From: Alloascoidea hylecoeti
Taxonomy: Eukaryota
DNA length: 64,000 nucleotides
Assembly: GCA_001600815.1 (NCBI GenBank)
Contig: BCKZ01000006.1
Location: 310,001-374,000, forward strand
Direction: 5' to 3'
This document shows, piece after piece, positions 13,056-56,430 of this stretch. The first letter of the stretch is position 1. The number at the start of each line of letters is the position of its first letter. The position numbers and the translations under genes are program-made. Below the pieces are notes generated by a model. That model was not told the origin of the DNA and did not search any database. It saw nothing but the letters and a program-made list of their open reading frames with translations.

Positions 13056-13079
13056 TAATAAAAATATTAATCAATAATA

Positions 13080-14081: not shown

Positions 14082-14147
14082 TGTTAACTACGGAAAGGAG
14101 GAAAACAGGATTTGGCGCTGTTTTAATATCACTACTTAACTATGAGA

Positions 14148-14154
14148 TGACTCA
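14148..14154. promoter_or_regulatory. Gcn4/AP-1 site TGACTCA about 67 bp upstream of the PCL5 ATG
   Basis: ATGACTCAA in the 84-bp intergenic gap; PCL5 is a known Gcn4 target in S. cerevisiae and C. albicans. Confidence 0.6.
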
Positions 14155-14165
14155 ATGCGGCCCAC

Positions 14166-22502: not shown

Positions 22503-22871
22503 CCTGGATATCTTTTCCTCTTTAATTCCAGTGTCTATTAACGGACGGAGTCTCACTTTACGTAAGACAACAGTGTGGTAGCTCAGACTTAGGATCCCAA
22601 GAACTGCCTACTAAAACCCCAGATGTTCCCACTGTAAGGCTTAAGCGGGTCTAGTTTTTTTAAATTTTCTTATATATATTTTCCAATTAAATTATCTAGT
22701 GATGGCTTTTTTTTTTTTTTTTTAACTTTACATATAATTTCCGATTAAAATATCTAATTAATTGAAATATTCTAACTAAAAATTATTAAATTGAGGAAAT
22801 CACACCAAGATTATAAAACTTCCTCTTCTCCGATAATAGACACTGGAATTAAAGAGGAAAAGATATCCAGG
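22503..22871. repeat. Perfect 38-bp inverted repeat (22503-22540 / 22834-22871) around a 293-bp spacer; MITE-like
   Basis: CCTGGATATCTTTTCCTCTTTAATTCCAGTGTCTATTA and its exact reverse complement; no clear target-site duplication. Confidence 0.9.
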
Positions 22872-22933: not shown

Positions 22934-23029
22934 GTCCCGGTGGCCGAGTGGTTAAGGCGATGCCCTGCTATTATCTAGTAGTTGAGGCATTGGGCTATGC
23001 CTGCGCAAGTTCGAATCTTGTCCGTGACG
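22934..23029 (+). tRNA. tRNA-Ser(GCT) with 14-nt intron (22971-22984)
   Basis: GTCCCGGTGGCCGAGTGGTTAAGGCGATGCC-CT-GCT-A[intron]AGGCAT, long variable arm GGGCTATGCCT, GTTCGAATC, discriminator G, T-run terminator. Confidence 0.95.
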
Positions 23030-33857: not shown

Positions 33858-34997
33858 ATGAAAATCGTCAAACAATCACTCGATAATCGACTAGCAGGTT
33901 CATTCACTATTATACCGGAGGATGATAATGATATATGGGTTTTATATAATGTTATTTTCAGCTCGGATCAAATCGCTTTAACAACCATGAGAAATATCAA
34001 AACACAATTAACTGAGACCCGATTTAAAAAAGAAAAGAAATATATTAGATTAAAATTAGATGTTCAAGCAGTTGATTATTTACCTGGTGAAGGTGATATG
34101 AGGATAAAAGGTCAAGTTATTGATGAAAATCCTTATGTTTCAACTGGTTCATTTCATACAGCTACTGTCGAATTAAACAGACCAATAACAATATTTAAAA
34201 AAGAATGGGACACTATTATGATGCAATCATTAGCAGATGCTGGTAAATCAGAAGACAGAGCAGAAATTGGAGCTGTTGTTATGGAAGAAGGATTTGCACA
34301 TGTTTGCATTATTACGAATAATATGACATTATTGAAACAAAAAGTTGAAAAGAAAATTGCAAAAAAAAGAAGAGGTGACATTCGTGGTCATGAAGAAGAT
34401 TTAAAGAAATTTTATAACCATGTCTATAATGCAGTTATAAAACATTTGGATTTTGAAAAATTAAAGGTTATAATAATTGCAAGTCCTGGTTTTACTGCTG
34501 AGAATTTTTATAATGTTTTATTAACGAATTTAATAAATAATAAACCAATTTTACAAGCGGCAAGGCAAAAAGTTGTTGTTGCTCATAGTTCAACGGGTTA
34601 TTTACAAGGTTTAGAGGAAGCTATGGCAGACCCAGATATTTCGAAAAGATTAGTTGACACAAAATATTCTAATGATACTCAAGCAATGGAAGACTTTTTA
34701 GATATGTTAGGGAAAGATGACACTAGAGCATGGTACGGACAAAAAGAAGTTGAGAAAGCAATAGCTGATTCTGCAGTTCAAGAATTACTTATAACAGATA
34801 CATTATTTCGATCCAACGATATTGATCAAAGGAAACATTTTATTGAAGTGAAAGAACAGGTTGAAAATGCGGGTGGAAAAGTGCACGTATTAAGTAGTCA
34901 GCATGCTAGCGGTCAACATTTAGATAACTTAACAGGAATAGCTGCTATTTTACGGTATCCGATGTATGATTTGGATGAGTCTGATATTGAGGAATAA
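33858..34997 (+). CDS. DOM34: Ribosome rescue factor Dom34/Pelota
   Basis: IPEDDNDIWVLYN, GSFHT, KKEWD, IIASPGF, AWYG, SGQHLDNLTGIAAILRYP. Confidence 0.95.
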   Translation: MKIVKQSLDNRLAGSFTIIPEDDNDIWVLYNVIFSSDQIALTTMRNIKTQLTETRFKKEKKYIRLKLDVQAVDYLPGEGDMRIKGQVIDENPYVSTGSFHTATVELNRPITIFKKEWDTIMMQSLADAGKSEDRAEIGAVVMEEGFAHVCIITNNMTLLKQKVEKKIAKKRRGDIRGHEEDLKKFYNHVYNAVIKHLDFEKLKVIIIASPGFTAENFYNVLLTNLINNKPILQAARQKVVVAHSSTGYLQGLEEAMADPDISKRLVDTKYSNDTQAMEDFLDMLGKDDTRAWYGQKEVEKAIADSAVQELLITDTLFRSNDIDQRKHFIEVKEQVENAGGKVHVLSSQHASGQHLDNLTGIAAILRYPMYDLDESDIEE

Positions 34998-35115: not shown

Positions 35116-35814
35116 CTAAGCTTCTAGTATTGTTTCTGACATGGTATTAATTTTATTACCATTAAAATTTCTAGGTGATATTCCAAAATATTTCCGTAGG
35201 TACCAAACATTATCTCCCCTAATATACAACAAACCATCTTGAACCAATCCAGAAGCCAAACCCAAGATAAGCCCCGTCTTCATATAGTTTAACGTCTGGT
35301 ACCTAGATAATCTGGTAATTCTTGCATACGTCCAACCAACCACGGTAGTTGAAATAGCAGTTGAAGTGAAATCAATACCTCCTTTTAAATGATCAATTAA
35401 GGCTTCTAAACCAAAGAATAAACCACAATAAGAGGTCACTTTTAAAGAAGTTTTAGCGCCCTGGATCATTCCATTTCTGACTAGAACATAATTTTTCCTT
35501 TTATGGTAAAAATACCAACCTTTCATTGAAGTTGGTAATCTATGAGCATTTTCAGCTAAGAATTGTAAGCTTGATTTTTTAGTACCATCATATGTTCCTG
35601 CGACACCACCAATTAAGGAGGCAGATGCTAAAATTATTGAAACTCTATAAATTGGATTTATGTGAAATCTTTGATTTTCATGAGCAAATGAAGAATCATC
35701 CTGTGCCATTGCTACTTGTGGGATATTTGCAGCATGTTCATTTAGCTCCTTTAGTTCACTTAAGTCCTTCTGTTCAGTTGGTTCTTTTAATTGTTTTGGC
35801 TCTTTGGAAGACAT
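35116..35814 (-). CDS. Uncharacterised fungal membrane protein, Tim17/22/23-like fold
   Basis: QFLAENAHRLPTSMKGWYFYHKRKNY motif plus four Gly-rich hydrophobic helices. Confidence 0.7.
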   Translation of the reverse strand: MSSKEPKQLKEPTEQKDLSELKELNEHAANIPQVAMAQDDSSFAHENQRFHINPIYRVSIILASASLIGGVAGTYDGTKKSSLQFLAENAHRLPTSMKGWYFYHKRKNYVLVRNGMIQGAKTSLKVTSYCGLFFGLEALIDHLKGGIDFTSTAISTTVVGWTYARITRLSRYQTLNYMKTGLILGLASGLVQDGLLYIRGDNVWYLRKYFGISPRNFNGNKINTMSETILEA

Positions 35815-36074
35815 TTTGGGATTGATTATCTTATTGTTAATAAAAGAGTTGGTTTTGATTGAAGCACGTGATATATATATATATATATGGCAGGGTAACG
35901 TTTATGTAGAGGTTTAATTCTTGTTGAAATTGGATCTCTTACTAACGTTAACGTATTTTTCTCCGGTTGGGAAATTCCTGTTTTGTTTGAGGTATGTCCG
36001 GAAGGGACAATGATTCAAAGTTCTCTCTGCCTTTTAAAGTGGCAGGATTAAAGATATTATAGGGTATATTCTAA

Positions 36075-36262
36075 TAATAATGATGATTTTCTTATGACCC
36101 CTCATGACTTAATACGCACCGTTTTATAAAAGAAAATGTTAATATGTTTAAATTGAAAATTAATTAACAGGCCTATTTACAATAAATTGAGTTTTTTATC
36201 TCTGTAAAACTATATCATTTAATTAAGAAGTCCTGGGAGTATTCATTTGATTCTGAATTTAC
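36075..36262 (+). repeat. Left arm of a ~190-bp inverted repeat (partner 39325-39515)
   Basis: Manual alignment shows long exact stretches, with about 8 substitutions and 2 small indels. Confidence 0.92.
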
Positions 36263-36508
36263 ATGTAACGAGGTGGATTATGTTATTGCTAATTTAGGGA
36301 TCAACTGTGGATCTTTTTTGACAATTTTACTACTAAAAACTTAACCCATTCAGCCAGCTATGAACGTATATCAACTTATAAAACTAAGAAATTAATGACT
36401 GTAAATAGAATAAAAATAGAAATAGTTTAATACTCATCATCATAACATCCGTACATACAGCTATTATAACTTCTGTTTCCATTTATATGCTCATCCTATT
36501 TGTGTGTC

Positions 36509-38464
36509 ATGACTTTTACAATATCTCCTAAAAATGAGGAAATAGGGACTGATGATTCTAGTTCGGATTTGCAATCCACCAATGATACTACTGAAAACAC
36601 CACGGTGTCTAATAATGCTAAAGATAATGAGGATACATCTATGTATGCTGAATCTAATGAAAGTTCAATAATTGAAAGAGATTCAAGAGAAGGAACTATG
36701 AAGGATGATGATGATAAACGGGAACAGGAACAGGAACAGGAACTACTAAATGATGAACTTGGACATCGACATGAACATGATGATGCCCTTAATAATAACA
36801 ATAATAATAAGGAAGAGGAAGAGGAAGATGAAGATATGGATGAGAATGAAGAAGGAAAACAACAAGAAGAAGAAGATCAAAATTTTAGTCTTGATAATGA
36901 TCACGAAGAAGAAGAAAATTCGGATGATGATAATTACGAACCTCGCGTTTTTTGTGCACCATATCATCCACCACATCCAGCTAGAAGAGCACTAGCAAAT
37001 TCAAAGGTTTTAGATGCTGGAATATACACAACAAATCAACTTGATTCTGAAAATTTAGAATATTTAACAACCGATTCTGATTTAAATGGTGAGCAAAAAA
37101 TTGATTCATTTGGTAGATTAAAAAATGGTAGAAAATATAGAATTCATTGTTTTAATTTACCAAAAAGAGGTAAGAAATTGTTTTTTTTGGCAACTGAAAC
37201 AGCAAAAGAATTAAATTTTAGAGATTCTTATTTATTATTTCATAAAAATAAATCGTTATTTAAAGTTATCGCAACAGATGAAGAGAAACAATTTTTAATT
37301 TCAAATAATTTAATACCGAATGCTTTTAGATCTAGAAGTATTGCTTTGGTCACTTCAAGATCCATTTTTGTTTTATTTGGATGTAGAATTATTTATCAAG
37401 GTAAAAGAGTTACAGATGATTATTGGGAGACAAAAGCTCGACAACAAGGATTTATTGAAGGTGAACCTGTTGATAGAAAACCAATAAAATCTACTCACAA
37501 CACCAATAATTTACATCGTGATTCAGGTCCTGGTGGTTCAAATGTAGGATATACGAATTCATATGATTATGGAACGGGTACTGGATCTCCAAAAGGTTAT
37601 GAAGAATATGGTCCTGGTCATTTACGCCATAGTGCAAGAAATAGTGATTTTGGATTAACAATATCTGATCGTGTTATATTAAATTCACCAATGACTACTG
37701 GAGGTTCATCATTGTTAAATAATGGCTTAATAGGAGGTGGTGGAATTGATAATCATATCTTTGTAGCTGGTAAATCAATTCGTGGAGGATTTGAATTTTT
37801 GAGAACAGGACCAAAATATAAACAATTAATTAATGATTTACAAAAAAGTAATAACAATGAAAATAATATATCACTGAATGAAGATTCAATATATATTGAT
37901 AAATGGAATAGAAATTTAAATCCTGGTATACCAAGAGTTACACCTGATAGGATTGAAATGTTAAAAGCATCATCACCATCATCTTTACCAAAAGAATTAT
38001 CATATATTGAAACGATACATAGTGCTGCTGAATTCAATTGGTTTTTAAATGCAAATCGAAATCTTAGAAATGAAGCATGGAAAGAATATTATCGATTTGA
38101 AACATTACAAGATCAATTACAACAACAACAACAACAACAACCGAATAATATAAATAATATAAATAATAACATAGATGATTCAATTAATGATGAATCAAAT
38201 CCAATACCTGGTGTAACAACAGCAGTTACAATATCTGCATTTCATGATAGGAAAAATTCAAAAAGTTTATCTCCTATAATAACGACATCCGGTATAAATA
38301 CAGGAAATACTGGTGATGGAAGTAATACAGGAACACCAAAAGTTGGGCATAGAGTATTGTCTAATACTGGTGGTGGTATTTCAAAAAAGAAAATGAAGAG
38401 AAAGGGAAATCCAAATAGTTTATTTAAAAATAATTTTCAATTTATAAAGCCTAGTTTTGTTTGA
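36509..38464 (+). CDS. NPL6: RSC/SWI-SNF subunit Npl6/Rsc7 family
   Basis: GEQKIDSFGRLKNGRKY...LNFRDSYLLFHKNKSL...RSRSIALVTSRSIFVLFGCRIIYQGKRVTDDYWE (CRC subunit domain); first ATG at 36509. Confidence 0.85.
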   Translation: MTFTISPKNEEIGTDDSSSDLQSTNDTTENTTVSNNAKDNEDTSMYAESNESSIIERDSREGTMKDDDDKREQEQEQELLNDELGHRHEHDDALNNNNNNKEEEEEDEDMDENEEGKQQEEEDQNFSLDNDHEEEENSDDDNYEPRVFCAPYHPPHPARRALANSKVLDAGIYTTNQLDSENLEYLTTDSDLNGEQKIDSFGRLKNGRKYRIHCFNLPKRGKKLFFLATETAKELNFRDSYLLFHKNKSLFKVIATDEEKQFLISNNLIPNAFRSRSIALVTSRSIFVLFGCRIIYQGKRVTDDYWETKARQQGFIEGEPVDRKPIKSTHNTNNLHRDSGPGGSNVGYTNSYDYGTGTGSPKGYEEYGPGHLRHSARNSDFGLTISDRVILNSPMTTGGSSLLNNGLIGGGGIDNHIFVAGKSIRGGFEFLRTGPKYKQLINDLQKSNNNENNISLNEDSIYIDKWNRNLNPGIPRVTPDRIEMLKASSPSSLPKELSYIETIHSAAEFNWFLNANRNLRNEAWKEYYRFETLQDQLQQQQQQQPNNINNINNNIDDSINDESNPIPGVTTAVTISAFHDRKNSKSLSPIITTSGINTGNTGDGSNTGTPKVGHRVLSNTGGGISKKKMKRKGNPNSLFKNNFQFIKPSFV

Positions 38465-38646
38465 AGTAAAACAATTAATATTGGGAGGAAAAACGATATG
38501 CAATTTCAGGTTAAGATATAATATATATATAATATAAAGTAATAAAGTAATGAATATAATATTCATTTATTTATACCCATAGCCTCCTCTTTATTTCGTT
38601 AATATTTAGGAGTTTTTAATTAATTTATTGTATTTGGTTAATTTTA

Positions 38647-39090
38647 TTAACATTCAGTGCATTGTTTATCTTCCTTCCACTTAATATCATTTTCAACTTT
38701 CTTTTGTCGAGGATCAACTGTAACTAAACCAGTTTCATCAATATTTTTTCTTTCTGTTGATTTCCCATTATGATCAGAATGACCTAGATTCTTTTCAGGA
38801 AAGAAAGAATTTCTAACTCTTTGCTTTAATATTTTTGAATCAGGAAATCCTCCATCTGTTTTACGTTCCCAAAGAATAATTATATCACTATTTATATCTT
38901 TTTGTCCTTTGATTATAAATGTTCCTGATATTGAAGAGGCAGTTAATGCTACTTCACCAAGTTGAGAACCAAAAGTTGACAATAATTCTTGTAAATACCA
39001 CGAGGCCCGTAGATTCCACTTACATTTCTCACAAAAGGATATTGATATTCTTGGATAATGAACAGAATCTGAAGTCATGTTTATAAACAT
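38647..39090 (-). CDS. Rdx (SelT/SelW/SelH-like) thioredoxin-fold protein, Cys form
   Basis: PRISISFCEKCKWNLRASWYLQELLSTF...LWERKTDGGFPDSKILKQRVR...LGHSD. Confidence 0.9.
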   Translation of the reverse strand: MFINMTSDSVHYPRISISFCEKCKWNLRASWYLQELLSTFGSQLGEVALTASSISGTFIIKGQKDINSDIIILWERKTDGGFPDSKILKQRVRNSFFPEKNLGHSDHNGKSTERKNIDETGLVTVDPRQKKVENDIKWKEDKQCTEC

Positions 39091-39324
39091 TTTGAATTGA
39101 AAAATTTAAGATTTATACATAAAAACATCCATACATTTCATTACTATAATCATGCATATCTCATATAGCCCTATACCTGGTAAATATATACGATAGACAA
39201 AGTAAACATCCTTTTCAATTCCAATCAAAGTAATTAAATGTATTGCGATGACCTTGGGGAAAATGAGGTTGAATTGTCACTAAAAACCTTCCGAATCGAT
39301 CCGCCCACGGCTCATTCTAAAGAA

Positions 39325-39515
39325 GTAAATTCAGAATCAAATGAATACTCCCAAGACTTATTAATTAAATGATATAGTTTTACAGAGATAAAAAACTCAA
39401 TTTATTGTAAATAGGCCTGTTAATTAATTTTCAATTTAAACATATTATCATTCATTTTCTTTTATAAAACGGTGCGTATTAAGTCATAAGGGCCAAAAGA
39501 AAATCATCATCATTA
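39325..39515 (-). repeat. Right arm of the ~190-bp inverted repeat (partner 36075-36262)
   Basis: Reverse complement matches the left arm. Confidence 0.92.
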
Positions 39516-39932
39516 ATGTGGATCTTTTCGGCGATTGAGATACATGAGATTACTTTCATAGCTAATAAAAAGGTTATAAGAAGAATGGGAGTGAAGCTAG
39601 CTTTGGAAGATTTTATAATTATCACTAAACTCCAACAGGTTATTAAATTAATAAATTTACTATCATATATTTAAATATATAGTTCAACCCAGGAAATACT
39701 TGGTAATGAATATTAAGGGGTATTTTGGATTAAACAGGCTAAATTAATAAAAGAAAATAATCTCAGATAATGGGACCCAATTCATATCCAAAGAATTTCA
39801 AAACAATCTTGATTGAGAATTGGAGGGACATTAAATTTAAAAGGTAAGCCATGTTACCCTGCCAGTTGTAGCGTAGCTGTTTTGTTGTTGTTTTGGGCCG
39901 TGAAGCCTCCTAAATTATATTCCCAAATTTAA

Positions 39933-45627: not shown

Positions 45628-48117
45628 TTATCTATAAGAATGACCTAAAAACCAAAATCTCCAATAGTCTATTTTTGTTTCTCTTTTTATTTGAAACTCA
45701 TAATACCGATTCTTAATCATTTCTTTGTAATTTTGATTGTTACCTCCTCTTTGAAATGCCTCTTGTAAATAAATACAACGTTTCATTATTGTATTGGTAG
45801 ATTGAAATGTTTCCCATTCCCGTCTGCTTTTATAGCTACCGGTGTTGTGGTTTGTGGTCCCTAAAGCTATAGGCATTACTGGTATAACTTGACTAGGAGC
45901 TTCTGGTGTTTTATGACCTTTTAATTTTGAACCCATCTTTTGGAATCTTTCTGTAAAGTTGACAGAGAATTTATTCTTAGGGATTGAAACCCTATTCCCA
46001 GTAGTATCACAAGAATCAGATTCGCAATTGGGAATTGAATCAAAATTCAACGGTATTATCCCAAGTCGTCTTCGGATATGAAATTTGCTTTCTTTTATAG
46101 CTACATCTTCATGTTTTAGCAATGGTTCTTGAACTTTAGTGTTAAACATGGGTTCATTTTCTTTGGAGTGTCGTGTTAAGGATAATGAAATTAATTTTTT
46201 CTCATTTTCCATTTTTTCGGGTATCTCTTTATTTGTATCATGCCTATCACCATTCCTCTCCTCAACGAGTAATAGTGGGACGTGATTTTTTCTAATGAAG
46301 ATCTGCTTCCACCACTCAAACTTACTTCGCTTTATTTTCTGATCTAAAGAATCGACAATCGGGGGAGGAAATCGATATGTCCTTGTAGTCTTGGGTATCA
46401 ATTGTAATGTTAATTGGGATTGTGATCTTAAGGTATCATCATTATCCGAGTCAGGATATGGCTTTTTTGTATGTGTATCAATGGTGTACCAACAATCTGA
46501 ACTCATATTCAGTTCATCATCATTAACTTCGGTATTAATATCATTAGTAGCTACATCACTCTCATGATATATGACTTTCTTTAGTTGTTTGATATCGGCA
46601 GTATTATTAATGGTTCCAGAAATCAATAATGTTCTTGGAACATTTTGAGATGAAATCTCAGGGTTAAAATTTTCTTTAGAAACTGATTCAGCGTCTATGG
46701 ATGTGGTTGTAGTGTTAGTAGAAGTGTAACTAGATTCTAATTTAACAATTGTATTTGAACCTGATTCTTTATTGTTGAAACATAAGTCTAGATTTGAAGG
46801 CAAAGGTATGTCAAGAGAACTGGGTGTGTTAATATCCCCCTCGGAACCGAAAATTTCAAGCCAGTCTGGTTTATCATTATCATCGCCATTTATTGATTCG
46901 CAAGAAGCAGCACAATTCAAATACGATTTATAACAATTAGGAGTGTGGATAATTTCAGCTTCATCTTGTTGGGCTGATCGCACCATTACTGTTGAAGTAT
47001 TTGAATAAATAGTTTCATTTCCCGAGATTTCTTTACATTCCTTTTGATGTTGATTATTCTTAGAAAACAATGAATGTAGATGTTGTTTATTAATTTTACC
47101 ATGAACAAAATTGGTAATAATTTCCATCTTTTGAGACAACTGATTATTTGGTATCATTTCTCCATTACTAGATGGCATAATAATAGCGCAAATGCATTGC
47201 TCTAACAATAATAAGGAATCATCATCTATTAAGCATGAGTCTTCTTCTCCATCATAATTATCTTTGGTATCACTCCCTATTTTTACCAATAAATTATCTA
47301 ACATTGTATCAAATAATGAATATAAAACAGCATGGATGTGGGGAATTTCTTTATAAATACAACAACAATCTAATAGCCAGTTTAATACTTGATAATGGAG
47401 GGCAGAATGATTAATGATAAGTTCAATTGTATCTAGTAATCGAGCAGCTATTTCTTCATTGATAAATATCAAATTGCCTTGCTCTAAATTCTCTTCATAT
47501 TCAACTTTTGAGATCTGTATACTATTCATCAAAGTTGTGTTATCATTGCCTTGCGATTCATAATTGAATTCATTGGGAATGCAATTCCCTTGTAAAGTTG
47601 AAAATAATAAATCTAAAGTTGCAATTGTATTAAAATTATCAATATAATATAAATCATCATAATCAATTTTATTAGGAATGTCAAAATTCAATTTGTGTTT
47701 TTTGTGTTTGTGTTCATGCACAAATTTAACATCATCAATATTTAATGATTTCGCTTTTATCGATACTTTCAAGTCTTCTTTTGTACCAGAATCAGCATTA
47801 GTATTAACCTTCTTATTGTTAAGATAGCTTAATGAACAATTGAATATAATCTCAACTAAATCAGATGCCTTTTGAATCAGTTCTAAGGATCCGATATCAT
47901 ATGAATTTCGTATAACGTTGTTTAGAATTTGGGGGAAGGCATTGTTGATGCCAAGAATTAATTGCTCTTTATTCAAGGTCTTTTGGGCTTTTATAATGTC
48001 TGATTTTAGGGAAGTAAGAAGGCTTAATAGTTTGGTCGATTCGGTTACTTTATAAGGCGATAGCGACAATAATTGTGCTTCAAACGAACTGTTTGAATTT
48101 ACTAGCATTTTCGGCAT
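45628..48117 (-). CDS. Hypothetical protein (829 aa)
   Basis: Long intact ORF, helical N-terminal half and disordered middle; no recognised domain. Confidence 0.75.
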   Translation of the reverse strand: MPKMLVNSNSSFEAQLLSLSPYKVTESTKLLSLLTSLKSDIIKAQKTLNKEQLILGINNAFPQILNNVIRNSYDIGSLELIQKASDLVEIIFNCSLSYLNNKKVNTNADSGTKEDLKVSIKAKSLNIDDVKFVHEHKHKKHKLNFDIPNKIDYDDLYYIDNFNTIATLDLLFSTLQGNCIPNEFNYESQGNDNTTLMNSIQISKVEYEENLEQGNLIFINEEIAARLLDTIELIINHSALHYQVLNWLLDCCCIYKEIPHIHAVLYSLFDTMLDNLLVKIGSDTKDNYDGEEDSCLIDDDSLLLLEQCICAIIMPSSNGEMIPNNQLSQKMEIITNFVHGKINKQHLHSLFSKNNQHQKECKEISGNETIYSNTSTVMVRSAQQDEAEIIHTPNCYKSYLNCAASCESINGDDNDKPDWLEIFGSEGDINTPSSLDIPLPSNLDLCFNNKESGSNTIVKLESSYTSTNTTTTSIDAESVSKENFNPEISSQNVPRTLLISGTINNTADIKQLKKVIYHESDVATNDINTEVNDDELNMSSDCWYTIDTHTKKPYPDSDNDDTLRSQSQLTLQLIPKTTRTYRFPPPIVDSLDQKIKRSKFEWWKQIFIRKNHVPLLLVEERNGDRHDTNKEIPEKMENEKKLISLSLTRHSKENEPMFNTKVQEPLLKHEDVAIKESKFHIRRRLGIIPLNFDSIPNCESDSCDTTGNRVSIPKNKFSVNFTERFQKMGSKLKGHKTPEAPSQVIPVMPIALGTTNHNTGSYKSRREWETFQSTNTIMKRCIYLQEAFQRGGNNQNYKEMIKNRYYEFQIKRETKIDYWRFWFLGHSYR

Positions 48118-48239
48118 AATATATTAAATCCTAATAGATAAAAGACTAGAGTGAAGGGGTGTAGAAAATAGGTTTGCATAACGTTAAGGGTGTAGCCCTA
48201 ATATTTTGGGTACTGTGACTTCTTCTTATATTTTGTATA

Positions 48240-49348
48240 AGTATATATCAGCACGGCTAGATTTCAAACTAAACACCAAAAATGAAGTTGAGAAATATCA
48301 ATTGTTTAATCAAAAAACACCTTTAAAAAACCTATCCTCAATTATAATACAAAAGAGTCGCAATGGGAGGTGTTAGAGAAAAAAAAAGTGAATATTTTTC
48401 AAAACTTAAGACTTTACTCGAAGAGTTCCAAAGCATCTTCCTCGTAGGTGTCGATAATGTTTCGTCTCAACAAATGCACGAAATCAGAAAGGCTCTCCGT
48501 GGTGATGGTGTTGTTTTAATGGGTAAAAACACTATGGTTCGTCGTGCTATCCGTGGTTTCTTATCTGAGTTGCCAGATTACGAAAGATTGTTGCCATATA
48601 TCAAAGGTAATATTGGTTTTGTTTTCACCAACAAAGATTTGAAGACAATCAGAGATGTTATTCTTGAGAACAAGGTTGCAGCTCCTGCTCGTGCTGGTGC
48701 CATTGCTCCTAAAGATGTCTGGATTCCAGCTGGTAACACTGGTATGGAACCTGGTAAAACATCATTTTTCCAAGCTTTGGGAGTTCCAACAAAGATTGCC
48801 CGTGGTACGATTGAAATTGTTTCAGATGTTAAGGTTGTTGAAGCTGAAAACAAGGTTGGTCCTTCTGAAGCCACTTTGCTTAATATGTTGAACATTTCTC
48901 CTTTCACTTACGGTATGACAGTCGTTCAAGTTTATGATAAGGGACAAGTTTTCCCATCTTCTATTTTGGACATTACCGATGAAGAATTAGTTGAACATTT
49001 CTTGGCTGCTATTAAGACCATTGCTACAGTTTCTTTAGCCGTCAATTACCCAACTATTCCAGCTGTTGGACATTCAATTGTTAATCACTACAAGAATGTT
49101 CTCGCCGTATCTATTGCTACAGAATATACATTTGAAGGATCAGAAGCCATCAAGGACAGATTAGCCAATCCAGATGCTTATGCAGCAGCAGCACCTACAG
49201 CAGCCGCTGAATCTACCACTGAAGCAGCCGCCGAAGATAAGGAAGAGGAAGAGGAAGAGGAATCTGATGATGACATGGGATTCGGTTTATTCGATTAAAC
49301 GCTTTCGTATTTCAATTCTGAATGTATAACTTAGTCAATTAATATCTA
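48240..49348 (+). repeat. Left arm of 1109-bp inverted repeat containing RPP0
   Basis: Reverse complement of 52499-53607; one synonymous difference noticed (48971 C vs T at 52876). Confidence 0.95.
48363..49298 (+). CDS. RPP0: 60S acidic ribosomal protein P0 (uL10), copy 1
   Basis: [30 protein letters not shown]-terminal [14 protein letters not shown]. Confidence 0.98.
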
Positions 49349-50564
49349 TAGTATATTACTATCCTTTGTTTATATCCATCAATTGAGTTTTACAAAAATG
49401 TAGATATTAGGCCACGGCCATGTTACTATGCAATGCATATCATATTACTTACAATTATTAATTATATCATATACACAAATTAACACAATGTAGTTAAAAG
49501 TTAAGGAATGGTTAGAATGATCATAATAGTAGTCTGATCTGCTGATATTAGTAACTAAATTTGCCGACAATTCGATTAATTAACTTTTCAACCGGAAAAA
49601 TTAATTTCGATCTACAATTTAGAAAAATTAGGTGTTTTCCCTTAAGCTTTGATATGATAAAATCTACTCCATGGCCATTATTTCTACAAATATAAATCAC
49701 AGTTGCCAACTAATCTCCATAATTGTCTTCGACTATATAAATAATGTGAGCTCACAAAGTGATACAATACTAACTTACATAGATAATAAATATATAAATT
49801 ATTGTTTTATATATATAGTATCTATATCTGGTTAACCACACCGTTAACAAGTCTGATGGTGTGGATTGAAATTTGGAAAGTGGTCGTATTTAAATTTCAC
49901 TGTAGTAGGTGGGAATTCTAATACTCCATGTCCTGAACTTGTAGCTGTTTATAAGGTGCTAACACTAAATCCTAAGTTTGAATCTTTAAAATTTACGGAG
50001 CATTTTGCACTATTTTAAGAGCAGTTTAAGGGATTTTAAGCTCACTTAAGTTTAGTACTATCGTAGATTCATAGTCTTCATCATCACAAAACGGCAGAAA
50101 ACATAGGCCCAGGTTATAATTACATCATTCTCGAAGTGATGCGTGGTCGACTTGACATTTCTGGCAATTTTCTACCGTTCACAATTGCAAAGTGTTTGAA
50201 TTTAATATGTATATTGATATAATTATAATAAAGTCGAAGCACTATTTCTATTTTTTCTCCAATTGTTTTGTCTGCAGATGGATTGGAATATTAATACAGC
50301 GACATATTGCAGACATAAAGAATATTATTGAAGTTTGATAAGACTAATCAGTTCGTGGACACATCAGCTTATATTATATTAAATTTAACTTTGGTCTTTT
50401 TTAACGATGATAAAAGGTTTTCTCAAGGGATCCCAATATCTGCTGTGATCGAATGGAAAGAACATAAAAAGTTCTGTAATAAATTGAGCATACAAGACAA
50501 TCAGTTACTTATATATAATTTAAAGTTACCCTAGATCTTACTAATAAATCAGAATCATAAAAGT

Positions 50565-51578
50565 TTAAACTTTAGGGATTTTGTTTACTTCCTCACAATC
50601 AAGACAATTCCACCCATTTTCAGGAATAATATAGCATAATGAACTTCCTAACACACTCAACCCCTCGGAAACACCGAACATTTCTTTGAATTTCTTTTGG
50701 CATGCAGATGTTGTAATCCGCTTTTCTCTAATATTAGAAAGTTGAGTAGAAATATATTTCCATTTGGCACGTTCTCCCACTTCAAGAAGATGACATAACG
50801 ATTCAATATCATTTGATTCCCACTGAGAGTGAAAAGTAACGACATTGTTATCGTTATTTCCGAGAGTTGTCCCTCTAGAGTGAGAAGAATGTGTATAGAT
50901 GGAGCTATTATTCATATTAAGGGGTGTTTTATGAATGTACTGTTCCGGAGGATCATAAATTGATGAAGCAATAGTTGAAATACTTGATCTACCAGATGTG
51001 GAAGAAGGGGCAGATGGCAACTCTACATTATCCTCATTTTCATGATTACTTTCGTGATTCCGTTGTTGATGACTATCTTTATTGCTATTGCTCTTAGCTC
51101 CTGGCTGTGGTTTATATTCTTGAAATTTATGATTTATTTGAGGTTGCATTTGAGATCTAACATTATCAGCACTAAATCTTGCAGGAATTTCATTCCACGA
51201 TTTGCCTTTTTGCCTTGAAATAATAGGATCTGGATTGTGATAAAAAGGTTGTTTCCTCCTTTGACTTAGAGAGTTGAGATCACAATTGGAGCTTAGGCCG
51301 GCATTGGTTGTAGGCCTGGGATCAGATGATTCCGAAAAAAAGGGTTTCTTCGTTGCAATTGGTATTTTGAAACTTGAGTTTATGTTGAAATCAGGGTTGG
51401 GATGAAGGTTTATTGGAGGTTTGTTCAGTTGAGGTTGTGGTGGACGAGAGCCATAGGACATTCCAGGATTAACGTTAGCTTGAAAAGGGTCAGCTGGAGA
51501 CAGTGCACGTGGACGAGGATCAGGATTACCCTGCTGGATCGGCAATGCCGGAGCCGGATAAATCTTTGGATATTGCAT
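50565..51578 (-). CDS. Protein with Pro/Gln/Ser-rich N-terminus and a C-terminal Myb/SANT-like domain
   Basis: WESNDIESLCHLLEVGERAKWKYISTQL...RITTSACQKKFKEM shows Myb-like W...W spacing; followed by a GSSLCYI...GW tail. Confidence 0.65.
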   Translation of the reverse strand: MQYPKIYPAPALPIQQGNPDPRPRALSPADPFQANVNPGMSYGSRPPQPQLNKPPINLHPNPDFNINSSFKIPIATKKPFFSESSDPRPTTNAGLSSNCDLNSLSQRRKQPFYHNPDPIISRQKGKSWNEIPARFSADNVRSQMQPQINHKFQEYKPQPGAKSNSNKDSHQQRNHESNHENEDNVELPSAPSSTSGRSSISTIASSIYDPPEQYIHKTPLNMNNSSIYTHSSHSRGTTLGNNDNNVVTFHSQWESNDIESLCHLLEVGERAKWKYISTQLSNIREKRITTSACQKKFKEMFGVSEGLSVLGSSLCYIIPENGWNCLDCEEVNKIPKV

Positions 51579-52498
51579 AAACTGTTATAAATACTACTAT
51601 ATATTTGAAATTTAAGTATAAGACAACGTAAACTGTTAGTGGGAGTGTAAAGATCAGAAAAATCAAAAAAATCAGGAAAGCCAGAGAATCAAAAATTATA
51701 ATAAGGCAGGGTATTTGTAATCCGTAATATTTCGTGAACACATGTTTTGAGCTGGGATGTGTTAATTATAATTGGAATATAAATTTGCCAAATTCAATTA
51801 ACCATATGCATACTATATACAAAGGATTTTAAAAACACGACTCAACCAGCGCTATCATTGATTTTAATGGTGGTATCTTCTTTGGTGATAGAGCAACCTT
51901 GAGCTTCAGGTCGTGTGCATGGGTTCCCACAAACTTCCCTTCGTAGCTGCTTAGAAGGTTCAGTAAATCATTACTCAGGTCATATCAAAATCAACAAATA
52001 TCCATGTGTCGTTTGCATAATTGGTCAGAATATTTGATCAACAGGCCCTAGAGCCAATATTGCTGTTTTTGAGTAAATTCGCGAATCCCTAGAAATTGTT
52101 CAAGACTTGAAAGCAGTTCAACCCAAAACATTTAATTTTTAATATCCATTACTGGATTGACTCCCCCGGCTGCTCATCATTAGATACTTTTCTAGACCAT
52201 TGAAAAAAAAACAGTGAAACCCCTGAAAAACGCGAATCCATTTTTGAGCATAATCGAATCCAAGCTCTTGACGCCATTGACAACGATGCTTCAGGCTACG
52301 AACACACTTTTATAGATAATTATAGCATGCATGTCTGTATCAAAGGTCGGCGTCGAAAATATGATATTCTAAATTTCTAAAGTAAAAATCTGTAAGAATT
52401 TCATACTTGTAAAATATTAAATGGAATAGATCCATAGATGTGATTCAATGATAGTGATGGTTCGCTTACTACACATAGTAATATATATTGGTCATAAC

Positions 52499-53607
52499 TA
52501 GATATTAATTGACTAAGTTATACATTCAGAATTGAAATACGAAAGCGTTTAATCGAATAAACCGAATCCCATGTCATCATCAGATTCCTCTTCCTCTTCC
52601 TCTTCCTTATCTTCGGCGGCTGCTTCAGTGGTAGATTCAGCGGCTGCTGTAGGTGCTGCTGCTGCATAAGCATCTGGATTGGCTAATCTGTCCTTGATGG
52701 CTTCTGATCCTTCAAATGTATATTCTGTAGCAATAGATACGGCGAGAACATTCTTGTAGTGATTAACAATTGAATGTCCAACAGCTGGAATAGTTGGGTA
52801 ATTGACGGCTAAAGAAACTGTAGCAATGGTCTTAATAGCAGCCAAGAAATGTTCAACTAATTCTTCATCGGTAATATCCAAAATAGAAGATGGGAAAACT
52901 TGTCCCTTATCATAAACTTGAACGACTGTCATACCGTAAGTGAAAGGAGAAATGTTCAACATATTAAGCAAAGTGGCTTCAGAAGGACCAACCTTGTTTT
53001 CAGCTTCAACAACCTTAACATCTGAAACAATTTCAATCGTACCACGGGCAATCTTTGTTGGAACTCCCAAAGCTTGGAAAAATGATGTTTTACCAGGTTC
53101 CATACCAGTGTTACCAGCTGGAATCCAGACATCTTTAGGAGCAATGGCACCAGCACGAGCAGGAGCTGCAACCTTGTTCTCAAGAATAACATCTCTGATT
53201 GTCTTCAAATCTTTGTTGGTGAAAACAAAACCAATATTACCTTTGATATATGGCAACAATCTTTCGTAATCTGGCAACTCAGATAAGAAACCACGGATAG
53301 CACGACGAACCATAGTGTTTTTACCCATTAAAACAACACCATCACCACGGAGAGCCTTTCTGATTTCGTGCATTTGTTGAGACGAAACATTATCGACACC
53401 TACGAGGAAGATGCTTTGGAACTCTTCGAGTAAAGTCTTAAGTTTTGAAAAATATTCACTTTTTTTTTCTCTAACACCTCCCATTGCGACTCTTTTGTAT
53501 TATAATTGAGGATAGGTTTTTTAAAGGTGTTTTTTGATTAAACAATTGATATTTCTCAACTTCATTTTTGGTGTTTAGTTTGAAATCTAGCCGTGCTGAT
53601 ATATACT
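52499..53607 (-). repeat. Right arm of 1109-bp inverted repeat containing RPP0
   Basis: Reverse complement of 48240-49348. Confidence 0.95.
52549..53484 (-). CDS. RPP0: 60S acidic ribosomal protein P0 (uL10), copy 2
   Basis: Protein identical to copy 1. Confidence 0.97.
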
Positions 53608-53697
53608 CATATAAAATAAACAGTCACCGCAGAAGGTGTAAGGATGTTACAATATATATCGCAGACTATCAAGTAATAAAGATTAAGACCAATATTA

Positions 53698-56430
53698 ATG
53701 GATTACAATGCGATCATATCTCAACTTTCGAAGCAGCCATCTGTTGAACAATTGGCTTTATTATTGACTGATATAAATAAACAGGATAGCGAAATTCCGA
53801 GACCTTTGAAGTTAAAGTTAATTACAGTAATTTTATCACACACGATTCCAGAATTATATTCTGATCTATCTAATAACACAAAAAGATTACTTCATAAAGT
53901 ACTATTGGATAAATTTGGTCTTGGTAGTATTATATCACGAATCACACTATTAAGTTCACAAACTCTTACAGAGATAGTAATATCGCATTTAACATCTTTG
54001 CTTTTATTGTTATCATCATTATTGATGAATAAAGGAGTCCTTCTAAAATCATACCAACAGAGTATTATTAATGATTCAGGCTTGAGAGAGTTTAAATCTT
54101 TATTTTTTGGAAGTAGAATATTATCAATTTGCAGTAAGGTTATAGTTTCAACACATACAACTGGATCCTTTGAATGGGTGGGAAATGCTAAACAGTATCA
54201 AAAGTTCCTTACAGATGAATTATCTTATCTAATTTTAAACGTAGATAAAGACGATATTATTGAGAGTATATTACCACAGTGTTTTATGTCTACCTGCTCG
54301 TTATATTCCCCAAATAACGGTACAATCATTTTAGATGTATTTCTTACCCCAAATTTATTCCCTAAACTCCAAATACTTTTCAAAGCCCTTTCTCAAAATC
54401 AAAAAACAATATTTTTAAGGAGATATCTTATTTTATATTTAAGTGAAAAATATTTGTCAACAAATAATAATTTAATAACAAAACGAATATTAGCATCATC
54501 AATAGTTCTAAAAGAACTGCTTAGTTATAAACATGATGATGGTTATGAAGATGATCTTTTTAACATTTTTCAAGACGTATTAAAGCAAACTATTTCTTTA
54601 AACAACTCAAATATGGAACTACTTATTATTTCAACATTATCATCGTTATCTCAAAGATTAACTGAGAAATTATTCCATGCTACATTAAAATCGTGGAGTG
54701 ATAATCTTTCGGTTAAACACACACCAATTCCTTTTCAACAATCAGAAACTCGAATTTTAATTTATTTTCTTAGATATGTTTCTAAAGCTTATTTATTGAA
54801 AAATGTAATACATGACTCCATTTTTCTTAATGGGATTTCGAATAGACTATCCTCAACTGCTCCAGTAATTAGAACATTGGGTATGATTATTGCCGAAGAA
54901 ATAACATCAATTGCAAATGAAAATGATAATAAACTTTCTTTTGATATAGAGGAACAAGTTAAAGTATTCAAAGCTAGTATGGCAGCTCCATTGGATAATT
55001 TAGACAGTTTGTCAGACTGGAGAAGTATATTAGATGAATCATCAAATTCAAAGAATTTATTTACACTACCAGTCGTTAAGGAGAGAAATATTTCACCTAT
55101 CGCTTCCGAATCAATTTTAAACGCCGATTCGGATGATTCGGATGATGAGTTCCAATCTTATGCTTTTCTCGAAAACGATGACGAAGATTCGGATGATGAT
55201 CCTACAATAGCGCGGAAATTAAAACCGAAGGTTCCATCTTATATTCGTGATTTATTATCTTATTTAATGAGTGATGATTTTGATCAAGTAGAACTTGCAT
55301 TAATAAATGGTCCTGAATTAATTCGTAAAAAGTCAAACTTTGGAACAGAAGTTTCATTTTATGCTCAACAGTTAACATCGTCAATAATCGGTCTTGAAGA
55401 TAAATTTGATATTGAAAATTTTAATGAATATAAACTGGACTGGTTAAAATCATTGGTGTACAGTAGTCCGAAGGAAACAATTCCCCATATTATTAATGCA
55501 TTTTTTCACAATGATTATTCTCTACAACAACGAATGATAGTGTTATCGGGATTGACTTTAGGGATTAGGGTTTTAAGGGGATTCAGTGATAATAATAACA
55601 CCGAGAATGAGTATCAAAATCACGAGGCAGTAAGTGAATTTGCTTCAAAACTGTTGCCTGCACATATACACAAAAGGTTTATAACTTATAATACTACCCA
55701 CAAACAAATTGGCATGAATGAGGTTAATGCCATATCATTAAGCTTACAACGTCAGACATTAAAAGATACCATAAAAGATGCTCGTGATGATGATGCACTT
55801 AGCGGTCCTAAAATCTTGAGGGTCTCAAGAAACTTGGAGTTGCGTCATCAAAATCAACAAAAGCATCAGTTGGAACCACAGAAAAGAACACATTTCCTTT
55901 TTAAGAATGTGAGTACTCTCATATTTTACCCGATGATTACCGGATGGTGGGCGTCAGGGGGTGCTCTAAACATTGGAAAGTATAGTACAGTACTGATGGC
56001 ACATTTTATAAACACTTTAGCAATCATATTACATGCATCGTACCCATCATGCTTGGAATTGAGGGACATGTCTGGAGAATTAATAAGAATAGTACTATCA
56101 TTAAAGTCATTATCCTTTACAGAAGAAGGAGAAGACGGTGGTTCAACGGAGCCGATTATCCTTGATAGTTTATTGACCTCCATCTTAGTTATATTGGATA
56201 TCATGGATAGCCAATTCATTATTCAAACTTGGCCTCATGAGTTAATTGAACTTCAATCATGGCTGGAGCAAATATGGAGTGATATCATTGACGCAAAAAC
56301 ACGGGGTGTTGCAGCTGGCGCACTTCTTCGTATACATGAGTTAGTGAAATCACCAATGTTGCTGGGAGAATTAATGAGCGTTGAACATTCTCATGTCAAG
56401 ATCCAGGACAAGTTAGGGCTAAGTAGGTGA
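53698..56430 (+). CDS. TEL2: TTT complex subunit Tel2
   Basis: FLNGISNRLSS...RTLGMIIAE, acidic DSDDD (CK2/PIH motif), PSYIRDLLSYL, LIRKKSNFGTEV, DYSLQQRMIVLS. Confidence 0.92.
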   Translation: MDYNAIISQLSKQPSVEQLALLLTDINKQDSEIPRPLKLKLITVILSHTIPELYSDLSNNTKRLLHKVLLDKFGLGSIISRITLLSSQTLTEIVISHLTSLLLLLSSLLMNKGVLLKSYQQSIINDSGLREFKSLFFGSRILSICSKVIVSTHTTGSFEWVGNAKQYQKFLTDELSYLILNVDKDDIIESILPQCFMSTCSLYSPNNGTIILDVFLTPNLFPKLQILFKALSQNQKTIFLRRYLILYLSEKYLSTNNNLITKRILASSIVLKELLSYKHDDGYEDDLFNIFQDVLKQTISLNNSNMELLIISTLSSLSQRLTEKLFHATLKSWSDNLSVKHTPIPFQQSETRILIYFLRYVSKAYLLKNVIHDSIFLNGISNRLSSTAPVIRTLGMIIAEEITSIANENDNKLSFDIEEQVKVFKASMAAPLDNLDSLSDWRSILDESSNSKNLFTLPVVKERNISPIASESILNADSDDSDDEFQSYAFLENDDEDSDDDPTIARKLKPKVPSYIRDLLSYLMSDDFDQVELALINGPELIRKKSNFGTEVSFYAQQLTSSIIGLEDKFDIENFNEYKLDWLKSLVYSSPKETIPHIINAFFHNDYSLQQRMIVLSGLTLGIRVLRGFSDNNNTENEYQNHEAVSEFASKLLPAHIHKRFITYNTTHKQIGMNEVNAISLSLQRQTLKDTIKDARDDDALSGPKILRVSRNLELRHQNQQKHQLEPQKRTHFLFKNVSTLIFYPMITGWWASGGALNIGKYSTVLMAHFINTLAIILHASYPSCLELRDMSGELIRIVLSLKSLSFTEEGEDGGSTEPIILDSLLTSILVILDIMDSQFIIQTWPHELIELQSWLEQIWSDIIDAKTRGVAAGALLRIHELVKSPMLLGELMSVEHSHVKIQDKLGLSR

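What the first reader, a model, noticed from the sequence alone, without database searches (positions are those of the whole stretch)
48240..53607. RPP0 duplicated as a 1109-bp near-identical inverted repeat enclosing a single Myb-like gene: candidate flip/flop cassette
Seen: two complete, convergent RPP0 genes with shared 123-bp 5' and 50-bp 3' flanks and one synonymous difference noticed. Degenerate similarity continues just beyond both ends (e.g. TATATTACTAT, GTGACT), suggesting an older duplication kept homogeneous by gene conversion. The 3150-bp spacer holds one ORF. Established: RPP0 is single-copy in S. cerevisiae; IRs built from housekeeping genes bound invertible MAT regions in yeasts such as Komagataella and Ogataea. 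Inference: the spacer may invert by recombination without breaking the essential gene, a possible non-MAT switch. A simple dosage duplication is the conservative alternative.
Basis: partly seen in the sequence, partly recalled or inferred. Interest (0 to 1): 0.75.

Follow-up and report, generated by a model that had tools for sequence, protein, structure and literature searches.

The report
Inverted duplicate of ribosomal gene RPP0
A budding-yeast chromosome carries two almost identical, facing copies of the ribosomal stalk gene RPP0 around a 3-kb piece holding one Myb-like gene; the structure is real but looks like an ordinary by-product of a small rearrangement, not a genetic switch.

Summary
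The arms 48240-49348 and 52499-53607 (1109 bp) differ at one base, a synonymous GAC/GAT at codon 203. A further 11 nt on the outer side match 9/11. The spacer is 3150 bp and holds one real ORF.

The repeat is not an assembly artefact. Cutting the window at k=31 repeat boundaries predicts segments of 1109, 3210, 8812 and 3194 bp. Independent short-read contigs carrying the same proteins measure 1109, 3213, 8812 and 3194 bp.

Both copies encode an identical, complete 311-aa P0/uL10 protein. The spacer ORF belongs to a fungal Myb-like family.

The two copies differ upstream. Only the left copy has a Tbf1-type ribosomal-protein palindrome, 39 nt outside the repeat.

Best reading: this is a real inverted gene duplication, plausibly the footprint of a small inversion. 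Recency and/or gene conversion keep the copies alike.

Recombination between the arms can flip the spacer. Nothing points to a switch: no alternative cargo genes, no MAT genes, no visible silencer.

Sister species, read depth and spacer orientation could not be checked. Interest is modest.

The parts
48229..49348 (+). Left arm of the inverted repeat (1109-bp near-perfect core 48240-49348 plus an 11-nt decayed outer edge)
   Evidence: 1 mismatch in 1109 nt; 9/11 match in the outer 11 nt
52499..53618 (-). Right arm of the inverted repeat (core 52499-53607)
48363..49298 (+). RPP0 (ribosomal stalk protein P0/uL10), left copy, 311 aa, complete
   Evidence: Pfam Ribosomal_L10, RL10P_insert and Ribosomal_60s; 79-83% identical to named yeast RPP0 proteins
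52549..53484 (-). RPP0, right copy, 311 aa, protein identical to the left copy
48971..48971 (+). The only difference inside the 1109-bp core: C here vs T in the partner (52876); codon 203 GAC/GAT, synonymous
49349..52498 (.). Unique 3150-bp spacer, potentially invertible
   Evidence: No Rfam match at E<=1. 0 of 10 stop-to-stop frames tested outside the ORF reach any Pfam cut-off; the best hits, E 0.01 and 0.048, are below cut-off
50565..51578 (-). Myb-like ORF, 337 aa (two degenerate Myb/SANT repeats near residues 108-156 and 250-305), related to a protein named 'adhesion and aggregation factor' in Sugiyamaella
   Evidence: Its own Pfam match is only E 0.06. Six homologues found; 3 of 4 scanned match Myb_DNA-bind_6. 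The family profile hits c-Myb DNA-binding-domain structures at E 3.6e-5. A 2-aa variant exists in another assembly
48184..48201 (+). TTAAGGGTGTAGCCCTAA: 1-mismatch match to the C. albicans Tbf1 ribosomal-protein-gene palindrome TTAGGGN6CCCTAA. Lies 162-179 nt upstream of the left ATG and 39 nt outside the repeat. Absent upstream of the right copy
   Evidence: 1 match in the window, 0.01 expected; 1 of 100 shuffles reached it. Motif taken from PMC2834713 (passages)
45628..48117 (-). Left flanking gene, 829 aa, no Pfam family; diverges from left RPP0 across 245 bp
53698..56430 (+). Right flanking gene, TEL2-like (Telomere_reg-2 domain); diverges from right RPP0 across 213 bp

Best explanation
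This is a real inverted duplication of the whole RPP0 gene: CDS plus 123-134 bp upstream and 50 bp downstream. The two copies bracket a 3.15-kb unique segment that carries one Myb-like gene.

The left copy sits in the ancestral promoter context, with a Tbf1-type ribosomal-protein element just outside the repeat. The right copy shares only the proximal 123-134 bp and abuts the TEL2-like gene.

Most likely origin (inference): a small inversion made with staggered breaks on either side of RPP0, or an equivalent inverted segmental duplication. Such an event leaves the breakpoint gene duplicated in inverted orientation at both ends of the inverted piece.

The copies are near-identical because the event is young and/or because gene conversion homogenises the interior.

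Homologous recombination between the 1.1-kb arms will occasionally cross over and flip the spacer. Because both arms are complete identical genes and the spacer gene carries its own flanks, flipping is expected to be a near-neutral by-product rather than a regulatory switch.

Shown: the structure, its reality, the identity of the genes, and the promoter asymmetry. Inferred: the origin, the homogenisation, and the neutrality of flipping.
For: Structure.

Reality of the repeat: a k=31 cut of the window predicts repeat-bounded segments of 3194, 8812 and 3210 bp, and arms of 731+61+377 = 1109 bp once the SNP bubble is merged. The contigs that carry the same proteins in an independent short-read collection are 3194, 8812, 3213 and 1109 bp. 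That is 3 of 4 exact and 1 off by 3 nt.

RPP0 and the spacer lie on separate contigs. This requires both ends of the spacer to join the same end of the repeat, which means two inverted copies rather than a single copy or a heterozygous simple inversion.

A second assembly carries a 2-aa variant of the spacer ORF on a 3551-bp contig. That length equals a 3153-bp spacer plus 199-nt overlaps on each side (my arithmetic).

Promoter asymmetry.

Homogenisation: 2 of 3 mismatches lie in the outermost 11 of 1120 nt (P about 3e-4).

Precedents: in Drosophila, 17 of 29 inversions carry inverted duplications of breakpoint genes, explained by staggered breaks (PMC1885836, passages). Concerted evolution of ribosomal-protein paralogues is widespread in fungi (PMC6993855, passages).

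A second, smaller inverted repeat with a 3.06-kb spacer lies 9 kb away. This fits a recurrent, mundane rearrangement process.
Against: No outgroup gene order could be examined, so the inversion origin is untested.

Similarity beyond the 11-nt edge is not significant. 'Old and homogenised' versus 'simply young' therefore rests on 11 nt.

The Tbf1 motif comes from C. albicans, and this yeast has no close named relative: the best named hits are 83% for RPP0 and 68% for GluRS. The match also has one mismatch.

I had no read depth, expression data or orientation data.

The repeat spans roughly what an mRNA would span, so a cDNA-based origin or cDNA-mediated conversion is not excluded.

Neutrality of flipping is assumed, not shown.
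Confidence: 0.7

Rival explanations
1. Regulated flip/flop cassette. Recombination between the RPP0 arms inverts the spacer as a reversible switch that changes expression of the Myb-like regulator, for example through different read-through or enhancer proximity from a strongly driven left RPP0 and a weakly driven right RPP0.
For: The inverted-repeat geometry is right for inversion. One real asymmetry exists between the sides: the Tbf1-type element is found only on the left. The cargo is a putative DNA-binding regulator. Flip/flop systems arose at least 10 times in budding yeasts (PMC6692504, passages).
Against: There is a single cargo gene, centred in the spacer with 920 and 1216 bp of its own flanks, and no pair of alternative genes. 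No MAT-type domain is found in the 23 distinct ORFs of 120 aa or more scanned. No gene-free or telomere-like region adjoins either arm: CCCTAA occurs 19 times against 24.5 expected, with no arrays. Both arms are identical complete genes, so the junctions are functionally equivalent.
Confidence: 0.04
2. Assembly artefact: RPP0 is single-copy and the second arm was created by the assembler.
For: Near-perfect inverted repeats with a single difference have been produced by an assembler in other yeast genomes (PMC6692504, passages).
Against: Those artefactual repeats run to the contig ends. Here, 48 kb and 10 kb of different unique sequence flank the two arms. Independent short-read contigs break at exactly the predicted repeat boundaries, at both the outer and the inner ends. 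That requires all four junctions to be present in the reads.
Confidence: 0.03
3. Inverted-repeat-type centromere: a unique core of about 3 kb flanked by near-identical inverted repeats, as in K. phaffii, C. tropicalis, C. parapsilosis and some Barnettozyma species.
For: The geometry resembles those centromeres: 1.1-kb arms at 99.9% identity around a 3.15-kb core (PMC5010909; PMC12711049). In K. phaffii, the only identical repeats over 1 kb are centromeres, MAT repeats and rDNA. A Dom34-like gene lies 13 kb away, and DOM34 flanks an ancestral centromere site in Saccharomycetales.
Against: Known inverted-repeat centromeres lie in non-transcribed, long intergenic regions. Here the arms are a complete ribosomal-protein gene with an RP-type promoter element. 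The core holds an intact gene that is conserved in a second assembly. Neighbouring genes start 213-245 bp away. GC content (33-38%) is not lower than in the rest of the window.
Confidence: 0.03
4. Retrocopy or cDNA origin. The right copy is a reverse-transcribed RPP0 mRNA inserted in inverted orientation. Alternatively, the sharp limits of identity are transcript ends because conversion uses cDNA as donor.
For: The repeat (123-134 nt 5', CDS, 50 nt 3') is about the size of an mRNA. cDNA is the proposed main donor for conversion between fungal RP paralogues, and retroposition is the proposed source of RP duplicates in fission yeasts (PMC6993855, passages).
Against: No A-run follows the 3' boundary in either copy. 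A TATA-like GTATATATC lies at the outer edge inside the repeat, which suggests the repeat reaches upstream of the transcription start. An insertion only 3 kb from the parent gene, in a structure that mirrors a second non-genic inverted repeat nearby, favours a DNA-level event.
Confidence: 0.1

Closest known systems
Inverted duplications of breakpoint genes left by staggered-break inversions (Drosophila; PMC1885836)
   Same: A non-repetitive, protein-coding gene is duplicated in inverted orientation at the two ends of a chromosomal segment. One junction of each copy is expected to be ancestral and the other new. The left copy keeps its upstream RP element, as that model predicts.
   Different: The segment here is only 3.15 kb and the organism is a yeast. 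The inverted state relative to an ancestor could not be tested.
Long ORF-containing inverted repeats of Candida albicans that mediate inversions, LOH and CNV (PMC6591007)
   Same: Arms in the kilobase range, more than 98% identical, built of genes. Inversions start from about 3.1 kb. Recombination between the arms is the mechanism.
   Different: The species is different and distant. Here no rearrangement has been observed, only the substrate for one.
Flip/flop (FF1/FF2) mating-type switching of Ogataea, Komagataella, Pachysolen and Ascoidea (PMC6692504, PMC5720833)
   Same: An inverted repeat made partly of an ordinary gene (part of SLA2 in Ogataea) bounds an invertible region.
   Different: Those regions span 19-194 kb, carry MATa and MATalpha genes at opposite ends, and have a centromere or telomere beside one arm. 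None of these features is present here.
Concerted evolution of duplicated ribosomal-protein genes in fungi (PMC6993855)
   Same: Two RP paralogues have near-identical coding sequence and divergent flanks.
   Different: Those pairs are mostly dispersed products of whole-genome duplication or retrocopies. This pair is local, inverted and 3 kb apart. From memory, RPP0 is single-copy in S. cerevisiae.
Inverted-repeat centromeres of K. phaffii and Barnettozyma (PMC5010909, PMC12711049)
   Same: Arms of 0.5-4 kb at 99-100% identity around a short unique core. The orientation of the core is polymorphic through recombination between the arms.
   Different: Centromeric repeats and cores are gene-free and untranscribed. 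Here both the arms and the core are genes.

Membership tests
Ribosomal protein P0 / uL10 (RPP0) | L10 domain, P0 insertion domain and acidic C-terminal stalk tail | tested here: met
   Pfam PF00466 2.4e-23, PF17777 7.8e-26, PF00428 4e-22, all above their cut-offs. 311 aa, against 307-314 aa for nearly all of the 120 best hits.
Flip/flop mating-type switching system | Inverted repeat flanking the invertible region | tested here: met
Flip/flop mating-type switching system | MATa and MATalpha genes (or two alternative gene sets) at opposite ends of the invertible region | tested here: not met
   The spacer holds one ORF, central, with a Myb-like domain. No HMG, alpha-box or homeodomain hit in the 23 distinct ORFs of 120 aa or more scanned.
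Flip/flop mating-type switching system | Silencing element (centromere or telomere) beside one arm | tested here: inconclusive
   Ordinary genes start 213-245 bp outside the arms. No TTAGGG-type arrays. A centromere cannot be excluded by sequence alone.
Flip/flop mating-type switching system | Both orientations occur, and inversion is inducible | not testable with these tools
   Short-read graphs are identical for the two orientations. No long reads were available.
Inverted-repeat-type centromere | Gene-free, untranscribed arms and core within a long intergenic region | tested here: not met
   The arms are a complete RPP0 gene with an RP-type element upstream of one copy. The core has an intact, conserved ORF.
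Inverted-repeat-type centromere | CENP-A (Cse4) occupancy or Hi-C clustering | not testable with these tools
   No such data were available.
Inversion-associated inverted duplication (staggered breaks) | Inverted duplicate of non-repetitive sequence at both ends of a segment | tested here: met
   this arm sequence has no other copy in the window.
Inversion-associated inverted duplication (staggered breaks) | The segment is inverted relative to the ancestral order seen in an outgroup | not testable with these tools
   No eukaryotic genome collection was on hand. The nearest named relatives are only 68-83% identical in conserved proteins.
RP paralogues under concerted evolution | Paralogues are more alike than orthologues, and the identity is confined to the gene | tested here: met
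   1108/1109 identity between the copies, against 83% protein identity to the best orthologue. The flanks are at background identity.
RP paralogues under concerted evolution | The duplication is older than the divergence of the homogenised tract | tested here: inconclusive
   Edge decay of 2 mismatches in the outer 11 nt favours this. Flank similarity further out is not significant.
Myb/SANT-like DNA-binding proteins | A recognisable Myb repeat | tested here: inconclusive
   The ORF alone gives only E 0.06 to PF13873, below the cut-off. Of 4 homologues scanned, 3 match PF13921 (4.3e-11, 9.1e-6, 1.7e-4) and 2 of these are above the cut-off. The 7-sequence family profile hits c-Myb structures at 3.6e-5.

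The most novel reading that the evidence does not exclude
The 3.15-kb cassette is a spontaneously or conditionally invertible element outside MAT. One side is driven by a full ribosomal-protein promoter and the other by a truncated one. Flipping would then change which RPP0 transcript runs towards the promoter, and which towards the 3' end, of the Myb-like regulator. The result would be two heritable expression states built on an essential gene that inversion cannot break.
Probability: 0.04. Interest if true: 0.75.

Novelty: new member of a known kind. Interest (0 to 1): 0.3.

Why it matters
The locus is a clean, well-bounded example of a complete essential gene duplicated in inverted orientation in a compact yeast genome. 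The two copies share a core promoter but not the upstream element.

It could serve three purposes. It is a natural substrate for measuring inverted-repeat recombination and gene conversion. It is a test of whether staggered-break inversions, described in flies, also shape yeast gene order. It is also a case of a ribosomal-protein gene duplicated without whole-genome duplication.

It does not open a new kind of system unless orientation turns out to matter.

Tried and rejected
- **Rfam.** The whole window at gathering thresholds gave only a tRNA at 22934-23029. The region 48000-53900 at E<=1 gave nothing. The region 35800-39800 gave one chance-level hit.
- **Hidden genes in the spacer.** I scanned 10 stop-to-stop frames outside the ORF against Pfam. 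None reached a cut-off.
- **Flank similarity beyond the arms.** Alignments and a resampling test showed nothing above chance.
- **RNA folding of the second repeat's arm.** z-scores were +0.91 and -0.34, so there is no structure signal.
- **Literature.** 'RPP0' + 'inverted repeat' + 'gene conversion' found 0 papers. 'RPP0' + 'inverted repeat' + 'yeast' found 5 papers, 4 listed; judging by the listing only, none concerns such a repeat.
- **Taxon placement.** RPP0 best hits are CTG-clade yeasts at 79-83%, but GluRS best hits are spread over several orders at 63-68%. No close named relative was found.
- **CTG decoding.** The single CTG codon in GluRS lies in a column with 9 Leu and 2 Ile among 11 homologues. 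This weakly favours the standard reading. RPP0 has no CTG codon, and the spacer ORF has 2, both in its unconserved N-terminal part.
- **Possible RPP0 repeats in other yeasts.** Of the 119 other listed RPP0 hits, 16 lie on contigs shorter than 1.8 kb. I rejected this as evidence, because transcript-derived contigs of this 1.1-kb mRNA would look the same.
- **Not checked.** Sister species were therefore not examined.


Full report
**Observation.** The repeat finder reports arms 48229-49348 and 52499-53618 with 3150 nt between them. It is by far the longest repeat in the window; the next longest is 128 nt.

A base-by-base comparison shows one mismatch in the 1109-bp core (48240-49348 vs 52499-53607), at 48971. 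The next 11 nt outward match 9/11. Further out, ungapped identity is at background (29-34 per 100). The mismatch is GAC/GAT at codon 203, and the two 311-aa proteins are identical. The shared flanks are 123 bp (134 bp with the edge) upstream and 50 bp downstream.

The motifs TATATTACTAT and GTGACT are present, but 60-nt flank alignments are not above chance (p about 0.11 at each end).

**Is the repeat real?** An exact look-up shows that the window's proteins also occur on contigs of an independent short-read collection. RPP0 is on a contig of 1109 bp, the spacer ORF on 3213 bp, the left flanking 829-aa ORF on 8812 bp, and an Rsc7-like protein further left on 3194 bp.

I cut the window wherever 31-mers are repeated. 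The predicted pieces are 731+61+377 = 1109 bp for an arm (SNP bubble merged), 3210 bp for the spacer, 8812 bp between the second inverted repeat and the RPP0 arm, and 3194 bp inside the second repeat. Three of the four lengths agree exactly and one is 3 nt off.

RPP0 and the spacer lie on separate contigs. The inner end of the repeat must therefore join both ends of the spacer, and the outer end must join two different flanks. That is an inverted two-copy structure. A single copy would not break the contigs there, and a heterozygous simple inversion would leave RPP0 and the spacer on one contig.

A second assembly holds a variant of the spacer ORF (335/337 identical) on a 3551-bp contig. This equals a 3153-bp spacer plus 199-nt overlaps on each side (my arithmetic). 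It suggests the same breaks in a second genome.

The assembler artefact described for some yeast genomes produces repeats that run to the contig ends (PMC6692504, passages). That does not fit a repeat flanked by 48 kb and 10 kb of different unique sequence. I had no read depth.

**The parts.** Both arms encode a complete P0/uL10 protein with all three Pfam domains above their cut-offs. It is 79-83% identical to named yeast RPP0 proteins.

The spacer has one ORF of 337 aa on the minus strand (50565-51578). Other ATG-ORFs lying within the spacer are at most 62 aa. No Rfam match was found at E<=1. None of the 10 other reading frames tested reached a Pfam cut-off.

The ORF alone does not reach any Pfam threshold (E 0.06). 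It does have six homologues, one of which is named 'adhesion and aggregation factor' in Sugiyamaella. Of four homologues scanned, three match Myb_DNA-bind_6. A profile of the seven sequences hits c-Myb DNA-binding-domain structures at E 3.6e-5. 'Myb-like' is therefore reasonable.

The flanking genes are an 829-aa ORF with no family on the left, diverging across 245 bp, and a TEL2-like gene on the right, diverging across 213 bp. The rest of the window is ordinary housekeeping: GluRS, Brr6-like, Gaa1, Dom34-like, Rsc7-like, RhoGAP and others. No mating-type domain appears among the 23 distinct ORFs of 120 aa or more scanned.

The organism is a budding yeast with no close named relative. The best named GluRS hit is 68% identical and the best named RPP0 hit 83%.

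**An asymmetry between the copies.** In C. albicans, Tbf1 binds ribosomal-protein promoters through a strict TTAGGGN6CCCTAA palindrome (PMC2834713, passages). The window has exactly one match with at most one mismatch, at 48184-48201. The expected number is 0.01, and 1 of 100 shuffles reached it.

This site lies 162-179 nt upstream of the left ATG and 39 nt outside the repeat. The 213-nt region upstream of the right copy has none. I infer that the left outer junction is ancestral, and that the right copy kept only the proximal promoter (a TATA-like GTATATATC lies at the repeat's outer edge). The relevance of a C. albicans motif to this distant yeast is an assumption.

**Age and homogenisation.** The arms show three differences in 1120 nt, and two of them fall in the outermost 11 nt. 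Under uniform mutation that clustering has P about 3e-4. It stays near 2e-4 if only non-coding and third-codon positions of the interior are counted.

This is the pattern expected if conversion tracts homogenise the interior but seldom reach the edge. A simply young duplication is not excluded.

Concerted evolution of fungal RP paralogues is well documented, with cDNA proposed as the donor (PMC6993855, passages). The repeat here is about the size of a transcript, so a cDNA contribution is possible. However, no A-run follows the 3' boundary.

**Origin.** In Drosophila, 17 of 29 inversions carry inverted duplications of breakpoint genes. These are explained by staggered breaks that are filled in and rejoined (PMC1885836, passages). 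Applied here, breaks on either side of RPP0 plus one break at the far end of the spacer would give flank-RPP0-inverted spacer-inverted RPP0-TEL2. The left outer and right inner junctions would be ancestral, which agrees with the left-only upstream element.

A second inverted repeat 9 kb away supports a recurrent, mundane process. Its arms span about 36099-36262 and 39325-39492, roughly 170 nt at 98% identity with a 4-nt indel, and its spacer is 3.06 kb. It has the same architecture around two other genes. This origin is an inference; no outgroup could be examined.

**Flip/flop.** Recombination between 1.1-kb arms 3 kb apart is expected. Gene-containing inverted repeats invert 3.1-100 kb segments in C. 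albicans (PMC6591007, passages). IR-flanked centromere cores are orientation-polymorphic among K. phaffii isolates (PMC5010909, passages).

The defining features of a switch are not met. There are no alternative cargo genes, since the single gene lies centrally with 920 and 1216 bp of its own flanks. There are no MAT genes. No gene-free or telomere-like region lies beside an arm. Both arms are identical complete genes, so the new junctions equal the old ones.

The one asymmetry found, the upstream element, lies more than 1.2 kb from the spacer. I rate a functional switch at about 4%.

**Centromere rival.** The geometry resembles inverted-repeat centromeres. In addition, DOM34, present 13 kb away, flanks an ancestral centromere site in another order (PMC12711049, passages). 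However, known inverted-repeat centromeres are gene-free and untranscribed, and here both arms and core are genes. I rate this at about 3%.

**Limits.** Sister species, read depth, expression and orientation were not checked. Statements that RPP0 is single-copy and essential in S. cerevisiae, and that the short-read collection uses k=31, are from memory. The k=31 simulation itself matches the observed lengths.

Noticed in passing
window 36099-36262 and 39325-39492: A second inverted repeat: arms of about 170 nt, 98% identical with a 4-nt indel, and a 3.06-kb spacer. It encloses two convergent genes (Rsc7-like at 36509-38464 on the plus strand, Rdx-family at 38647-39090 on the minus strand). 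Each arm lies about 230-240 nt upstream of the inward-pointing gene and contains TATAAAAG, so it looks like a duplicated promoter piece. The architecture matches the RPP0 repeat. No RNA family or fold signal was found.
   Followed up: partly
window 33858-34997: A Dom34-like (eRF1-domain) gene lies 1.1 kb from the second inverted repeat and 13 kb from the RPP0 repeat. DOM34 flanks an ancestral centromere position in Saccharomycetales (PMC12711049). This is a lead for locating this chromosome's centromere. No other synteny with that site was seen.
   Followed up: no
window 13001-15000: A GC-rich island (46-57% GC against 32% for the window). It overlaps a Ser/Pro-rich ORF (13080-14081, minus strand) with a cyclin domain (Pfam E 6.4e-6). 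The 57% GC stretch at 14-15 kb has no ORF of 120 aa or more.
   Followed up: no
window 22503-22545 / 22829-22871 and 22934-23029: A 43-nt inverted repeat (98% identical, 283-nt spacer) lies just beside a tRNA gene found by Rfam (44 bits). ARAGORN did not report that tRNA; it instead called an odd 'tRNA-???' at 5632-5716. The region 20.1-24.4 kb is the longest stretch of the window without an ORF of 120 aa or more.
   Followed up: no
window 49349-52498: In two other assemblies the spacer appears to be 3 nt longer than in the window: 3213 vs the 3210 predicted, and 3551 = 3153 + 2x199. This implies a small indel somewhere in the spacer. I could not locate it.
   Followed up: no
RPP0 homologues: Of the 119 other listed RPP0 proteins, 16 come from contigs of only 1.0-1.8 kb. 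This could mean collapsed RPP0 repeats in other yeasts, or simply transcript-derived contigs of this 1.1-kb mRNA. The tools at hand cannot tell these apart.
   Followed up: no
window 1208-3385 (GluRS), residue 68: The only CTG codon of this conserved gene lies where 9 of 11 homologues have Leu and 2 have Ile. CTG is rare overall, at 4.1 per 1000 codons. This hints at standard decoding, even though the best RPP0 hits are CTG-clade yeasts.
   Followed up: partly
window 49628-49645: A 2-mismatch match to the Tbf1 palindrome lies inside the spacer, 280 nt from the left arm. At this stringency the window count (2) equals the chance expectation (1.86), so it is probably meaningless.
   Followed up: yes
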